The position numbers were made by a program, and so were the translations under genes. Shown here one piece after another: positions 18,301-27,300 of a stretch of DNA of 64,000 nt. Numbering within the stretch: the first letter of the stretch is position 1; each line of letters starts with the position of its first letter. The DNA is from Balanoglossus misakiensis (lineage: Eukaryota; Animalia; Hemichordata). The notes under the pieces are model-generated. The model was not told the origin of the DNA and did no database searches. It saw nothing but the letters and a program-made list of their open reading frames with translations. The stretch lies in NCBI GenBank assembly GCA_040954595.2, contig CM082581.2, positions 3,712,699-3,776,698 on the forward strand, read 5' to 3'.

Positions 18301-21300
18301 GGAACATTGCTAAATGATTTTGAAACTCCTGTAAAACTTCTGTTGCCCAGAAAGCCTTTGCTGTGTGACTTACTGACTTTCAATCTTGGGTAAATGAATG
18401 TTGTTTCTGCTGTCATTGGCAGATTTAGTGTAAGAGCTGTTAAATTAACAGTTTTAAGATCCTTCATGGTTTGGGCTTTGGTTTTGGTTTCGGTGGTAGT
18501 GGTGGCTTTGTCCCTGGTTTTGGATTGTTTGTGTTGGGAACTGATACATTGGAGGATCTTGTAGTGGCACTGGTAGGCTGTGATGATGGTGGTGGTCGAA
18601 TCATATTCTGGTATGTATTTTCAGTCTTCCTGTGTGATGATGTGACTCTACTTTGATTTTGCTGGCCACTGGTTGATTTAGCTGCCAAAAATGAATGCAC
18701 ATTGGATGGCTTTCTTAATTTGGGCTTTGGTTTCAATGGAGGTGTTGGCTTGGTTTTTTTTGCACAATCCACTGATGTCGGATTAGTGTTGTCAGATGGC
18801 GTTGGTGATGTGTACTTCGGATTCTGTGTTGGCTGAATTTCACGACTTTCAGACTGTTCTGGTGGTGATAGGAGATTATTCTGCATATTCTTCTGTATTG
18901 GTTTGGGCTTCACTGGTGGTGGTGTCATATGTGCGTTTTGGTTTCTTTCGTTTATATCTGCTAATATCATATTGGTGTTACCAGATTTTGGCGGTGCTGG
19001 TTCCATAATCTGTTCTTCATTTTGGCCCTCTGTTGGTTTCTCCTGATTTGGCTGATAATTTCTTTTGTTGAATCCACTATGGTTTGGTTTGTTGGCATCA
19101 GATCGTGTTTCTGTTTGTAATGATGTCCCTGTGTTTTGTTGATGCTGTCTTTCACTATCAACACTGGTAGCTTTGGTGCGTTGTGTTGGTGTTTGTGATG
19201 ACAGATTCAAATCTATCATTGGTTGAAGATCTTCTCCTGTGTGACTTGCCAGTGGTGTCTCCTCTGTTGTTTGAACACAGATCGGTTGATTATCATCTTC
19301 TTTCTGACACCCTGGTTGTGCCTCTTCTGTTGTTCGATGCTCTACTTCATCACTGGCATCACTCCCATATTCTTCGGCATCAGGCTGAATTGATCTTCCC
19401 AATGAACGACTCGATTCCTGCACTGGTGGATTTTCACCTCCTGTCATACTCACTGATGATGTCTCCTCACATGGTTGATGTTGTCCTTCACTTCTTGTAT
19501 TGCCAAGTTCAACAGTGTCAGACAGTCTTTCATCTCCATCATCAATAGTTTCAGTTATAACAGACTGTGTTGGTTGTTGTGATGTTTTGTCATTTTGGCC
19601 TGAGAATTGGTTTTCTGACTTTATAGTCTGTTCACGTAACGCTGACTGAACATTCTCATTTACATCCAGTTCACTTCCTGGTGTGTTGAACTCTATCTTT
19701 TCTTGGCTTGTGTTTTTCCCTGTGGAATCCAGCATTGTACCAGGCTGCCCGTCACTGTCAGGTAGAGCTTTCCCTTCGATAGTTTCATCAAAAGAGTACT
19801 GTTGTGTAACCCCCTCTTGTATGGGACTCAATGTTACATTTGAAGACATCTCACCATCCGGTACGCCACTCGATGACCCCAGTATGTCATCAGCCTCACT
19901 TGCAGTTTCGGTGTTGTGTCCTGTATCTACCACCAAATCTGCAGAATTTTCATTTTGGCTTTGAGTCATTGAAACTTCATTACTTCCATCTGTTAATTTG
20001 CTGTTAGCTTTTTCTGCATTTTCAGCTTCGACCTGCTTTATTTCAGCCTGTATTATGTTACGAGCAACATCATTTCCTATCGCCTTGAACTTGTCTTCCA
20101 GCAGTTTTAGTTTTTCCAGGAGAGGATCGCATTTGCCTACTACTTGCGAAAAGAAAAACGCCAGCAGACGGCTTGTTTTTTTCCCTTCAATGGTCTCTAC
20201 TGAGTTTATCTGTACTGGTGTTAGACCCAGTTCTGCAGCAAATGCTTGCCAGTCAGCATGTCCATAACGACCTGAATCGAGAACTTCACACAGTTTTCGC
20301 CAAGTGGCTGATTTCACAGAACTATCCAGTGGTGACCAATTTGGATTCCAGTTCCGATAAAGTTCGTCACCTGTCTTCTCTTGACCCTCTGGGTTTTGGT
20401 CCTGTCAGAAATTAAACTGAATAAATAAAACTTACAACACGTTGCATTTTGAATGCTAAATGCATATGTACCATCCTTATATTAGGTTTCTTTTGCAACA
20501 CTTATACTATGGTGGTGTCTTAAATTGGACAATGTTTTGCTGTATTCTGTGATGGAGTTTGATTGTGGTTCATCAAATTTTCCTTTTAGAGCTTGCAAGT
20601 CTGTTATGTAGAGAAACTCTCTGATACAGTATGAGCTTATCCACTTGGAAACTTAGTTCAGATATGCAGTATTACAGTAAAACCTGTCTAAACCGAAACC
20701 GGTGTAATCTGGAAACCTGTCTACACTGAACACTTTTTTTCCATCTTTGACACACATGTTAAAAGAACCTCTATAAAGAGGACACCTCTGCAAAACAAAC
20801 AGTTTCTTCAGGCCCTTTGGTGTTCGGTTTAGACAGGTTATATACTGTATATGAAACAAGGGAATGAACCTTAACCCATAATTCCCATAATTTTATACTA
20901 AAACAAACTAAATGGTTCAATGTTCAGTTTGTTGTTACATGTACCTGACTTACATCTGCAGTGTTTCTGTCACTGTCCTCTCTGTCAATGATAAAAGTCA
21001 TATCATAGTCGTCTTCGGATACATCGAAAGACAAGGAGAGTGAACATCGTAACTCTGGCGTGCTAGTGTTCTGGTCTCCTGGTGTACCGACAAAATCCAG
21101 GATGAACTTGCAGTCTGCAACAATGGAATCTCCACCTACACAAGTTCCAATGTCTTTTGTTTTAATCACCTGCAAAGATAACCATGTGGTCGTGTAGAAC
21201 GTGTACGACTTAGAAGCAAAATCTTGTGTGTTTATTGATTTACAACCTTGTCAGCCTTCACTAAATTGTACCTACCTGGAAAGATGTACTTCCCCATACT

Positions 21301-24300: not shown

Positions 24301-27300
24301 GATGTATGCATCTGTTATGCTTTCAAGCTGGTGACCTGGCATTTTATGGTGCATAGTTATACATGTCTGACATACACATTCATCACAAGTGACACAAAAG
24401 TATTCCAATACTCGCCCTTCGTGTTGTTCGCAGAAATCGTCCGCCTTGCCGGATGCTAAGTCTTCCAACATGATCCTCAGAGATTCTTGTTGACTGTGAC
24501 TCTTGTAGCTCTCGTCAAGTCCCATATACATGTCACTTTCTGCTTGTGTTAGACATCCAGCTTCTTTGCCAGATATATGCAATTCCGCCATTTTTACCTA
24601 CACGTACTGGCACAGTGGTGAATAGATTTGCAAACAATAATCACCTTACAAAGTTTGACTTCATACGTGTAGGCATGAGCACCTAATAAGGAAAATTGTT
24701 CTGCTGGACACTCCCCTTTTCTGCTTTCTTCACAACTGCCAACCAACAAGCATGTACAACAAGCTTTGTTACCACAAGCTTTGTTCTTGTATTTTCCTAT
24801 TAAAAATCCTTTCCCAGAAGAATCCTTAGGTGTACAAGTTCATTTATATTCCAGGTTTTTGTCTAGACAAGACGGAAACAGGCCACTATTACACTGCGCC
24901 AGTAGGCTTGACCTCAAATTCCAATGACATCAATTTATTGTTTGACCACAATGCCGTGTGCAACTCTCCCAAAGTAGGAGATAAAGATTGATTACTTTTA
25001 TATCAGTATTATCGCATAGTCATTGGTCACACTGTCTGCATTGCATTGCATCCAAGAATGTCATTCTTATTTCTGGTGTTACTTGAATATAAGAAATAAT
25101 CCGTCAGTCTTATTATTGTATAAATTGCATTGGTCACCAGAAAATTTAATAATTTACAGATTTGGAAAAGCAGCTACCTGGTCATGTTGAGGTACTAAGT
25201 TAATTCCTTGGCTGTTTCTGTTGATTCGCGCATCAGCTTATCTTGTACCGTACAACAGGTACTAACATAAACTACACCTGTAATCATATTCAATCTTTAG
25301 CCCTTTCACCCCCATTTTCCTGTGTGGAGGTCCATCTTTACCATGGCAATCAATGTGTTTGGACCAAACCATTAAACGCAAACGTCAAAAGTGATAACGC
25401 TTGACTCAGTGTATCATATACAAATCGGCATCTATCCAGTTTATTAAAAAAACACCCACTCACACCAAATATTTCATTCCAATGCTTTATTACAGGCATA
25501 ACTAATAGTTGTGAAATCAAAGCATGGTAAAATGAATTGATCAGACCTTAAAATACTCAATCACAGTCACTCATTTTGGTTCAGCATAAGAGTCTCAATC
25601 TTATAAAAACTTTGCTGTTGTTGGATCAACAAAAAAATGTTAACATTATAGACCGGTGCTGCCTGTGACTAGTGTGTTATTAAATGAAAATATAGGCTAG
25701 CAATATGCTAAAATTAGGCTGGCTAATGGGGTATAGTGATGAAAAAAGGTAAATAACTGCTGAATACTGTAAAACACTTTATTTTCGCGAGTTGAAATTT
25801 TCGCGATATCGAGAGAGGCCACTGTTTCGCGAGTATTAATTTTCACGTTCTTTTATTTCATTCACTGCATCGTTATCTTCAAAAAAAAATTACGCGACTT
25901 TTTATTTTCATGCTATTTTGGCTCTCGCGTAATTCGCGAAAATTTATTGCTCGCGAAAATAAAGTGTTTTACAGTGAGTATGTCTCAAGGTATATGCAAA
26001 GAATTAACTCTGAGGTGTGTTGTATGGGTGATGTAAAGACGGAACAAGAGCAGTGGGGTGTTTGTTCCGCAAGAGAATATAGTTTCTGACTTGGCTTGAC
26101 CCCCAGTGTATCGCGGTTGGTGTTGTTATCGCGTTATGCCATTTGCCTTATGTCATCAATCAGCAAGAGAGAGACTTTGTCCAAGTAAGTCAGTCTTCAA
26201 CAGTATCAATGCCAATTGTACAGATATTGGCTGTAGTGACAAGCAGGTCATTGGCCATTTTGTTATTATGCTTCAGGGATTTAAATGAGAAATTACAGTA
26301 ATTACAGAAAACAAATACTGAAAACGTAGCCAAAATATACATCTAGCATTAAAGGGACAAAGTCTCTCTCTCTCTGCCCTTTTTCCATTAATTATGTTTG
26401 ATACAAGAGACCGTTTATGTTATTCTATATGTGGATATATAGTGAATCAACGTTCAACCGCACACAACTTCCATCCCACTTGTAGACACAAGAGTGAAAA
26501 ACTTACCAAAATGAATAATTGGTGTTTACCATTTATTCATTTTGGTGAGATTTTTACTCTCATATCCTACAAGTGGGATGGAAGATGTGTGTGGTCGAAC
26601 ATTGATTCACTATATATCCACATGTAGAATAACATAAACGTTGTCTTGTATCAAACATAATTAATGGAAAAAGGGCAACAAGAGAGAGACTTTGTCCCTT
26701 TAAGGGAGTGGACTACCCAAATGAGTGTATGGTTATCACATTCCAGAGTTCCTGCGATGCACATTCATCCCTGTCTGTCAAAGCTGGAACACTTGTGCAA
26801 CCTCCAGAGACAAAAGGCGATTCTCAGGGTCTGGACTTTCTTGCAAGCGACTGGCACAATTTCTGTCTGATCTGGGAACTTCATAGTACTCTAGGCATCT
26901 GCCAATCAGAAATAAATTTTACACTCATTGAATCAGAGACTGTAGTACGGCTGATATCACTTTCAAACAATCATGGCGAAGAGTCTAGTTCATTCATTCA
27001 TTCATTCATTCATCATACATGAATAAAGCGATAAACAAGAATGTATCTTTTGACTTATGACCTTACAAGAACAGACAGTCGCTGTGTCTGGCAGCGCATC
27101 CTCTCAGCCTTGGTAGGATGGGAACACCCTGTTCTTTCTATTTTGTATTTAAAATTGATTGTAAACATAAACAACAATCAGGAAAATGACAATATTTTCA
27201 ATTTTGAGTAGTCCACTACCTTAATTTACAACTTTAACCCCTATTTCCATCTTTAGAGGTCCAACCTCACCATAGAAAACAGGGTGTTTGGACTGAACCA

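What the first reader, a model, noticed from the sequence alone, without database searches (positions are those of the whole stretch)
18464..24591. TRIM-like B-box/coiled coil fused to a PIDD/ankyrin-type ZU5-ZU5-UPA-Death module
Seen: five phase-0 exons join three separate ORF-track entries into one protein of about 1672 aa: B-box, coiled coil, acidic linker, two ZU5, UPA, Death domain and a disordered tail of about 500 aa. Known: ZU5-ZU5-UPA-DD is the supramodule of PIDD1 (with LRRs) and ankyrins, and B-box-CC is the TRIM oligomerisation unit. I do not know a characterised protein combining them. Inference: a lineage-specific cytosolic death or immune signalling scaffold, PIDDosome-like, with the LRR sensor replaced by a TRIM-like oligomeriser.
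Basis: partly seen in the sequence, partly recalled or inferred. Interest (0 to 1): 0.82.

Follow-up and report, generated by a model that had tools for sequence, protein, structure and literature searches.

The report
TRIM-like head on self-cleaving death module
A gene whose closest relatives are in acorn worms is predicted to splice a TRIM-type B-box and coiled coil onto an UNC5CL-type ZU5-UPA-death-domain module that likely cuts itself once, with a second ZU5 copy that has lost the cutting motif and may act as a spare lock on the death domain; the parts are familiar and often reshuffled in marine invertebrates, but this combination is uncharacterised.

Summary
The five-exon model holds: GT-AG, phase 0, 1672 aa without stops, with B-box2, coiled coil, two ZU5, UPA and a death domain (DD). 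Introns 2-4 are backed by homologues and a neighbouring paralogue. Intron 1, which makes the fusion, has the weakest donor, and no transcript was examined. The label 'PIDD/ankyrin-type' is not supported. The module is UNC5/UNC5CL-type (homologue model against UNC5B Z 31.6, against ankyrin-B 15.6). The two ZU5 are 50% identical copies from one acorn-worm clade, about 80 aa apart. ZU5b keeps the self-cleavage motif (HFT; S/T/C in 132 of 136 related domains). ZU5a has lost it (DLA) but keeps the DD-binding face. Best reading (0.45): a cytosolic protein that likely cleaves once, holds UPA-DD closed, and would release it when the N-terminal half is degraded or displaced, as in CARD8. The cassette is promiscuous: relatives carry RING, RING-B-box, Ig, NACHT, LRR-TIR or RhoGEF fronts, and this scan has noted other fronts on it in other genomes. 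It is a new variant of a known kind; function is untested.

The parts
22474..24591 (-). Exon 1 (aa 1-706): B-box2, coiled coil, acidic disordered linker, ZU5a, decayed UPA start. An AG lies just upstream at 24598-24599, so a 5' exon may exist.
24316..24438 (-). B-box type 2 zinc finger, aa 52-92
   Evidence: Pfam PF00643 E 1e-8; PDB MID2/TRIM3 hits
23977..24315 (-). TRIM-like coiled coil, about aa 93-205; homologous to the N-terminus of P0004
23614..23634 (-). DSG-hydrophobic linear motif (aa 320-326) in a short island shared with the paralogue's linker; resembles a beta-TrCP phosphodegron (motif recalled); role untested
22696..23160 (-). ZU5a (aa 478-632): cleavage motif replaced by DLA (aa 620-622, 22734-22726); predicted DD-binding face intact
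21652..22272 (-). Exon 2 (aa 707-913): ZU5b (aa 713-870) and the first UPA strands
21811..21819 (-). HFT motif (aa 858-860); predicted self-cleavage between F859 and T860
   Evidence: PMC3210808 passages
21276..21401 (-). Exon 3 (aa 914-955), middle of UPA
20954..21169 (-). Exon 4 (aa 956-1027), end of UPA
18464..20401 (-). Exon 5 (aa 1028-1672): death domain (about aa 1055-1150, 20320-20033), then a low-complexity tail of about 520 aa, acidic first and Pro/Lys-rich at the end (two PxxPxKP motifs)
28232..34331 (-). Tandem paralogue, predicted 961 aa in 5 exons (34331-34268, 31894-30411, 30139-30017, 29667-29461, 29236-28232; a 958-aa last acceptor also fits): no B-box or coiled coil, one ZU5 with the motif replaced by QLA, UPA, DD, tail

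Best explanation
The gene is predicted to encode a cytosolic death-domain signalling protein that carries a RING-less TRIM head (B-box2 and coiled coil) on an UNC5CL-type ZU5-UPA-DD module, likely cuts itself once at the HFT motif of ZU5b, and likely keeps its death domain clamped by ZU5 until the N-terminal half is degraded or displaced, which would free UPA-DD to nucleate an immune or cell-death complex. Shown here: the exons, the domains, the UNC5-type fold of a close homologue, the intact HFT in ZU5b and its loss in ZU5a. Inferred: (1) constitutive cleavage at F859/T860 into an 859-aa N-fragment and an 813-aa UPA-DD-tail fragment that stay associated, as in CARD8, NLRP1 and PIDD1; (2) a closed ZU5-DD state as in UNC5B, with the uncleavable ZU5a acting as an extra clamp; (3) dimerisation through the coiled coil, as in TRIM proteins, raising local DD concentration or recruiting a RING partner; (4) release of UPA-DD on proteolysis of the long disordered N-terminal half; (5) DD-DD recruitment of a MyD88/IRAK- or FADD/RIPK-type partner. 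The trigger and the partner are unknown.
For: Fold: the AlphaFold model of the Saccoglossus homologue P0003 (mean pLDDT 81, pTM 0.79) superposes on the whole UNC5B ZU5-UPA-DD (Z 31.6, 352 residues, rmsd 3.4), against Z 15.6 for ankyrin-B and 12.4-12.5 for CARD8/NLRP1 (Foldseek E 1e-21 vs 2e-14). The nearest structural cluster of P0004 aa 250-700 in the Atlas is UNC5CL (TM 0.68). A profile of acorn-worm and window rows alone hits UNC5B at E 1e-23 and ankyrin-2 at 0.002. Motif: of 159 non-window ZU5 domains, 136 have letters at all three motif columns; the third is T/C/S in 132 of 136 (85/26/21), the second F in 129, the first H in 122. The F aligns to residue 137 of chain 3g5b; my count of the offset from C663/C670, H624 and E666 makes this UNC5B Leu-677, the stated equivalent of CARD8 Phe-296 at the cleavage site, and the same paper names Ser, Thr or Cys as the nucleophile in this chemistry (PMC3210808, passages). 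UNC5CL keeps the autoproteolysis, and cleavage can relieve the closed state (PMC10084454, passages). CARD8's release mechanism: PMC9213247 (abstract and opening). Clamp: ESMFold2 on ZU5a with this gene's DD scored 0.82 against a best control of 0.36; runs agree in at least 70% of contacts, partner pLDDT at least 81; the mark was reached by 51 of 78 solved and 2 of 108 mismatched microbial pairs, and by 71 of 105 solved and 2 of 126 unrelated eukaryotic pairs. A like complex is solved (ZU5-DD within 3g5b), so the pass may show likeness only. The interface includes V573, which aligns to UNC5B V619 (my count), a ZU5/DD interface residue in PMC3210808. The interface residues are conserved across the clade, and DD F1109 is invariant in 6 of 6 close relatives.
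Against: No cleavage, expression, partner or immune role was tested. All ZU5 cleavage sites in the passages I read use Ser; a Thr site is an extrapolation, and my search for ZU5 + HFT + autoproteol found 0 papers. Close relatives tolerate loss of the motif (P0002 DFT, P0010 EFA, paralogue QLA), so cleavage is not essential to the family. The fold was modelled on P0003, not on this protein, with an alignment that held 32 distant proteins among its 44 rows. The DD alone scores weakly (Pfam E 0.009; best PDB hit E 0.37). The C-fragment would begin T-K, not X-P, so DPP9-type control (requirement recalled) does not carry over. The DSG motif is enriched about 12-fold both upstream and downstream of ZU5 in relatives, so it does not point specifically to N-terminal degradation. 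Neighbouring ORFs show no immune cluster. Even for UNC5CL, the IRAK link rests on overexpression (10.1101/2023.02.08.527716, passages).
Confidence: 0.45

Rival explanations
1. A non-cleaving or cleavage-indifferent adaptor: a coiled-coil dimer that uses ZU5, UPA, DD and the proline-rich tail as docking sites in trafficking, cytoskeletal or developmental signalling, as UNC5, ZO-1 or SH3BP4 do, with no immune role.
For: The nearest solved structures are UNC5B and ZO-1 ZU5. SH3BP4/MACC1 clusters also match P0004 structurally (TM 0.52-0.55). The tail has two PxxPxKP motifs. ZU5a and the paralogue persist without the motif.
Against: It does not explain the strict S/T/C alternation at one column (132 of 136), nor the family's expansion with RING, NACHT, LRR-TIR and Ig fronts.
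Confidence: 0.2
2. A dampener rather than a trigger: the uncleavable ZU5a, and the wholly uncleavable paralogue next door, bind the death domains of active family members and hold them closed.
For: ZU5a keeps the DD-binding face and is modelled on the DD (0.82 vs best control 0.36; 51 of 78 solved and 2 of 108 mismatched pairs reach the mark; a like complex is solved). ZU5a and the paralogue's ZU5 both lack the motif and are sisters in the best trees, though weakly (70/93).
Against: This gene keeps an intact HFT, UPA and DD. The complex test cannot tell which family member binds.
Confidence: 0.13
3. The fusion is not, or not mainly, made: exon 1 reads through to the 22441 stop (B-box, coiled coil, dead ZU5, 716 aa), or an earlier in-frame donor (24255, after aa 112) joins the B-box directly to exon 2.
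For: The intron 1 donor is the weakest of 8, and the phase-0 donor at 24255 scores higher. P0018 is an annotated RING-B-box-coiled coil-ZU5 protein that ends just after its ZU5.
Against: Exon 2 has no start of its own, the gap is only 201 nt with no polyadenylation signal, and P0004 joins the homologous coiled coil to ZU5-UPA-DD.
Confidence: 0.12
4. A PIDD1 equivalent: a ZU5-ZU5-UPA-DD supramodule that is processed in two steps and builds a RAIDD/caspase-2 PIDDosome, with the TRIM head in place of the LRRs.
For: Same order of domains. One cleavage just before UPA would give a fragment like PIDD-CC, which is the active species (PMC7883297, passages).
Against: The first site is lost, the two ZU5 are near copies with a long spacer, and the PIDD DD ranks far down the PDB list (E 1e-5; absent from the 9 hits of the clade-only profile).
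Confidence: 0.1

Closest known systems
UNC5CL (ZUD) and the UNC5B cytoplasmic ZU5-UPA-DD supramodule (PDB 3g5b)
   Same: Same three-domain module and, in the homologue model, the same closed packing (Z 31.6; UNC5CL cluster TM 0.68). The self-cleavage motif sits at the equivalent position. RefSeq names several close relatives 'UNC5C-like' or 'UNC5B-like'.
   Different: No transmembrane helix or ectodomain is evident; it has a B-box2/coiled-coil head, an extra uncleavable ZU5, Thr as predicted nucleophile, and a 520-aa tail. Identity to UNC5B is about 20%, so orthology is not shown.
CARD8 / NLRP1 (FIIND = ZU5-UPA, then CARD)
   Same: Disordered N-terminal region, then a self-cleaving ZU5, UPA and a death-fold domain; ZU5-UPA fold match Z 12.4-12.5. 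Offers the release-by-degradation mechanism (PMC9213247 abstract).
   Different: DD rather than CARD; HFT rather than SF/S; no Pfam FIIND hit; the new N-terminus would be T-K; no NACHT or LRR.
PIDD1 and ankyrins (ZU5N-ZU5C-UPA-DD)
   Same: Two ZU5 before UPA-DD; HF-nucleophile motif as in PIDD1.
   Different: The two ZU5 are 50%-identical copies about 80 aa apart, only the second keeps the motif, and there are no LRR or ankyrin repeats. Sequence and fold scores favour UNC5B by a wide margin.
TRIM / RBCC proteins (MID2, TRIM2/3); annotated Ptychodera flava RING-B-box-coiled coil-ZU5 protein XP_070539112 (P0018)
   Same: B-box2 directly followed by a coiled coil. P0018 shows a TRIM head on a ZU5 with HFS in an acorn worm.
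   Different: No RING found in this gene or upstream. P0018's ZU5 lies outside this clade and its model lacks UPA-DD, so it is likely an independent fusion.
Acorn-worm ZU5-UPA-DD family in RefSeq (P0001-P0010), especially P. flava XP_070549589 (P0004)
   Same: 43-52% identity in ZU5; same UPA and DD; P0004 has the homologous coiled coil and a DSG motif.
   Different: P0004 has one ZU5, and its model starts at the coiled coil with no B-box; other members have RING (P0002) or long helical fronts (P0001, P0009). None is characterised.

Membership tests
UNC5/UNC5CL-type ZU5-UPA-DD supramodule | ZU5 followed directly by UPA and DD with the 3g5b fold | tested here: met
   Colinear with P0002/P0004; homologue model Z 31.6 over 352 residues; UPA profile E 0.004 on the spliced protein. 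The fold was modelled on P0003, not on this protein.
UNC5CL | N-terminal transmembrane anchor | tested here: not met
   The N-terminal 477 aa are a B-box, a charged coiled coil and a hydrophilic linker; judged by reading and composition, no TM predictor was run.
UNC5CL | Self-cleavage motif at the end of ZU5 | tested here: met
   HFT at aa 858-860 in the column of UNC5B L677 / CARD8 F296. Motif only; the residue is Thr.
UNC5CL | Actual autoproteolysis and IRAK/NF-kB activation | not testable with these tools
   Needs expression assays.
UNC5 netrin receptors | Ig-Ig-TSP1-TSP1 ectodomain and TM helix | tested here: not met
   No such Pfam hits in the gene's ORFs.
PIDD1 | N-terminal LRRs | tested here: not met
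   No LRR hit in exon 1.
PIDD1 | Two HF/S autoproteolytic sites, one per ZU5 | tested here: not met
   ZU5a reads DLA at the motif columns.
PIDD1 / ankyrin ZU5N-ZU5C pair | Two divergent, directly packed ZU5 of ankyrin/PIDD descent | tested here: inconclusive
   ZU5a and ZU5b are 50% identical and both lie in a 17-row acorn-worm clade (SH-aLRT 100, quick tree); each matches UNC5B far better than ankyrin. No PIDD1 or ankyrin sequence was in the tree, so descent was not tested directly.
PIDD1 | DD binds RAIDD/CRADD | not tested
   No acorn-worm CRADD sequence was at hand.
TRIM (RBCC) | B-box2 followed by coiled coil | tested here: met
TRIM (RBCC) | N-terminal RING | tested here: not met
   No RING in exon 1; tblastn with the RING regions of P0002 and P0018 and a pattern scan of 24592-28230 found none. 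A very divergent or tiny upstream exon cannot be excluded.
CARD8/NLRP1 FIIND proteins | FIIND with SF/S motif and C-terminal CARD | tested here: not met
   Pfam gives ZU5 and Death, not FIIND or CARD; the motif is HFT.

The most novel reading that the evidence does not exclude
Acorn worms have a family of self-cleaving ZU5(HFT)-UPA-DD tripwire sensors with interchangeable fronts, an invertebrate parallel to CARD8/NLRP1. In this member, duplication has split the two jobs of ZU5: ZU5b cuts (HFT kept, but A811 and V853 at two DD-facing positions where the clade has a larger hydrophobic residue in 12 of 12 and an aromatic one in 11 of 12), while ZU5a cannot cut but keeps the full DD-binding face and is the lock, tethered to a TRIM-type dimeriser.
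Probability: 0.2. Interest if true: 0.75.

Novelty: new variant of a known kind. Interest (0 to 1): 0.48.

Why it matters
If cleavage at HFT and release of UPA-DD are real, the CARD8/NLRP1 logic of activation by degradation is far older and wider than vertebrate inflammasomes, runs through death domains, and mostly uses threonine. A pair of ZU5 copies, one cutting and one clamping, would be a natural experiment that separates two functions that are joined in UNC5CL and PIDD1. If not, this is one more shuffle of a promiscuous invertebrate cassette, of annotation value only.

Tried and rejected
No RNA holder was listed for 18200-25200, so no reads were laid; this is no evidence either way. No whole genome is held, so copy number in this species was not counted. 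Three word-index protein searches each gave 1 hit; the HMMER search was the useful one. The Atlas search with exon 1 gave no usable hit. The single-sequence model of exon 1 was poor (mean pLDDT 40) and was not used for a fold search. A B-box pattern scan missed the B-box of P0018 and is insensitive. An upstream RING exon was sought and not found. An N-terminal phosphodegron trigger was considered: DSG-hydrophobic motifs are enriched upstream of ZU5 (35 seen, 2.8 expected, 111 proteins) but equally downstream (8 seen, 0.6 expected, 33 proteins), and no unrelated animal control set was at hand, so it is kept only as a lead. The order of duplication is unresolved: ZU5a pairs with the paralogue's ZU5 at 70/93, and ZU5a+ZU5b as one clade is not rejected (p-AU 0.229); in that tree one long outgroup row (P0017) fell inside the clade. 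The careful version of the 84-row tree did not finish, so the quick tree is cited (84 of 162 domains used). The partner class of the DD cannot be read from the PDB ranking (MyD88, Pelle, FADD and p75 all score alike). Liao 2014 (PMC4258472) and Heinz 2012 (PMC3307986) are not held. Look-ups of earlier findings near this place, by sequence, and by two longer word sets were empty.

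
Full report
Gene model. The exons translate to 706, 207, 42, 72 and 645 residues, 1672 in all. Pfam finds the B-box and both ZU5 strongly, the death domain weakly and UPA not at all. Introns 2-4 are well supported. The spliced aa 713-1170 aligns without a break to RefSeq proteins P0002, P0001 and P0004 at 38-43% identity. A UPA profile built from 17 distant proteins scores the spliced form at E 0.004 and no single exon better than 0.68. A tandem paralogue upstream (34331-28232, predicted 961 aa) has phase-0 introns at matching places, with exons of 123 and 207 nt against 126 and 216. 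Intron 1 makes the fusion and is less secure: its donor scores 2.2 against 4.3-8.1 for the other seven examined (recalled frequencies). But it is the best GT downstream of ZU5a, exon 2 has no upstream in-frame Met, no polyadenylation signal follows the read-through stop, and P0004 carries the homologous coiled coil and the ZU5-UPA-DD in one annotated chain. No transcript was examined.

Relatives. A HMMER search with exon 2 found 332 proteins at E up to 0.001, 10 of them at E up to 1e-30; the best 150 were listed. All 10 closest are from acorn worms: 8 Ptychodera flava, 1 Glandiceps talaboti, 1 Saccoglossus kowalevskii. Pfam scans of all 150 show the ZU5(-UPA-DD) cassette behind many fronts: RING 2, Ig 5 (one with kinase and MAM), furin-like or growth-factor-receptor repeats 4, N-terminal Death 3, RhoGEF 1, NACHT 1, LRR-TIR 1, and 6 ZO-1-like proteins. 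A B-box occurs in 1 of 150: P0018, a P. flava RING-B-box-coiled coil-ZU5 (B-box E 4e-5, just under the cut-off; for 5 proteins only the best five families were shown). Two or more ZU5 occur in 7 of 150, and in 6 of these the copies within a protein are starred sisters in the tree (two have near-zero branches and may be assembly duplicates). Internal ZU5 duplication is therefore recurrent and not a mark of PIDD1. Named distant hits are echinoderm, amphioxus, nemertean and further P. flava proteins.

Which supramodule. ZU5a and ZU5b are 50% identical in protein and 67% in DNA over 365 nt. Both, with the paralogue's ZU5, fall in a 17-row clade with 14 named acorn-worm domains (SH-aLRT 100; quick tree of 84 of 162 domains, no PIDD1 or ankyrin rows). 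Each matches UNC5B at about 1e-8 and ankyrins at 0.01 or worse. After ZU5a lie about 80 hydrophilic residues whose start resembles the first UPA strand, so ZU5a is a copy of a ZU5-plus-UPA-start exon whose UPA part decayed. The AlphaFold model of P0003 matches the whole UNC5B cytoplasmic domain at Z 31.6 over 352 residues, ankyrin-B at 15.6, and the Atlas places P0004 nearest UNC5CL. The module is UNC5/UNC5CL-type with one added ZU5, not the PIDD/ankyrin pair. Whether it arose by internal duplication or by fusion of two tandem copies is unresolved.

Self-cleavage motif. ZU5b has HFT at aa 858-860. Among 159 non-window domains, 136 have letters in all three columns, and the third is Thr, Cys or Ser in 132. 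The Phe aligns with UNC5B Leu-677 (offset counted by me), which PMC3210808 gives as the equivalent of CARD8 Phe-296 at the scissile bond; that paper also names Ser, Thr and Cys as the nucleophiles of this chemistry (passages). Alternation among just these three residues is what a catalytic nucleophile would show. ZU5a reads DLA and the paralogue QLA, like UNC5B's QLG, which is not cleaved (PMC10084454, passages). One cut is thus predicted, giving a UPA-DD-tail fragment of 813 aa. Against this: P0002 and P0010 have also lost parts of the motif, and I found no paper on a Thr site in ZU5 (0 papers).

The dead ZU5. ESMFold2 placed ZU5a on this gene's DD with a score of 0.82 against a best control of 0.36, contacts agreeing by at least 70% between runs and partner pLDDT at least 81; the mark is reached by 51 of 78 solved and 2 of 108 mismatched microbial pairs, and 71 of 105 solved and 2 of 126 unrelated eukaryotic pairs (alignments were not used). 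The UNC5B structure holds a like interface, so the pass may be memory and shows likeness, not binding. The interface residues are conserved in the clade, and ZU5a matches the clade at two hydrophobic positions where ZU5b departs (V573 vs A811, F615 vs V853). That hints at a division of labour, cutter and clamp, on two positions only; ZU5b was not modelled with the DD.

Head and tail. The B-box2 and coiled coil resemble those of MID2 and TRIM3. No RING was found in or upstream of the gene, so it is not an E3 ligase by itself; dimerisation through the coiled coil follows from general TRIM knowledge (recalled). The linker holds a short island, ending in a DSG-hydrophobic motif, shared with the paralogue, but such motifs are enriched on both sides of ZU5 in relatives. 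The tail is low in hydrophobic residues and ends in proline-rich motifs.

Mechanism. The best fit is CARD8-like: constitutive cleavage, a closed ZU5-DD state, and release of UPA-DD when the N-terminal half is degraded (PMC9213247, abstract and opening). Every step after the motif and the fold is inferred. Rivals are a non-cleaving adaptor (0.2), a dampener (0.13), a split or alternative transcript (0.12) and a PIDD1 equivalent (0.1).

Literature and novelty. Nine searches were run. ZU5 + B-box + UPA gave 14 papers and TRIM + ZU5 + tripartite motif gave 14; by title they are mostly inflammasome or neuronal reviews, and of these I read passages of PMC8195603 only, which mention UPA-ZU5 and TRIM fusions to TRADD-N separately. 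Passages of PMC3482391, PMC8260672 and PMC9573974 note ZU5 in expanded sponge proteins, cnidarian NLRs and an amphioxus kinase. I saw no description of a B-box/coiled coil on ZU5-UPA-DD in these searches. Liao 2014, and the supplements of PMC8195603 and PMC3482391, which I did not see, may list it. Earlier notes of this scan record other fronts on the same cassette in other genomes and a ZU5-ZU5-UPA-DED tail in this one (unchecked). Verdict: a real gene, a new variant of the UNC5CL-type module in a shuffling acorn-worm family; interest 0.48.

Noticed in passing
window 28232-34331 (-): Tandem paralogue with one motif-dead ZU5 (QLA), UPA and DD, no B-box or coiled coil; its tail has an internal repeat of about 60 aa. 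Possible decoy partner. In P. flava, P0004 and P0007 have near-consecutive accessions on a contig of the same length and may be the matching pair.
   Followed up: partly
P0001, P0009, P0153: Acorn-worm proteins with the same cassette behind a long helical region and a TIR-like-looking alpha/beta segment (my reading; Pfam gives only ZU5 and Death). Possibly an ARM-TIR front on a self-cleaving module.
   Followed up: no
P0002: P. flava TRIM2/3-like RING on ZU5(DFT)-UPA-DD with a hydrophobic C-terminal stretch.
   Followed up: partly
P0018: P. flava RING-B-box-coiled coil-ZU5(HFS), an independent TRIM-ZU5 fusion from another ZU5 clade; the model ends soon after ZU5.
   Followed up: partly
ZU5 homologue set P0001-P0153: DSG-hydrophobic motifs are about 12-fold over shuffle expectation on both sides of the module, while permuted controls are not. 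In 9 domains, such as P0064 (ZO-1-like), the alignment has nothing after HF.
   Followed up: partly
window 749-2237 (+), 2360-2689 (-), 6677-7261 (-), 39556-40164 (+), 56287-56664 (+): Neighbouring exons hit EGF/EGF_CA, TCP-1/cpn60, thioredoxin-like, BRCT and pyridoxal-dependent decarboxylase families (6 of 48 ORFs scanned had hits): an ordinary neighbourhood.
   Followed up: no
window 26350-26700 and 33670-34050: Two copies of a roughly 350-nt element with terminal inverted repeats (seen by eye), likely a small non-autonomous DNA transposon; one lies in the paralogue's first intron.
   Followed up: no
window 46094-47879 (-): Three open frames of 126-155 aa without Pfam hits that look like exons of an unannotated gene or element.
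   Followed up: no
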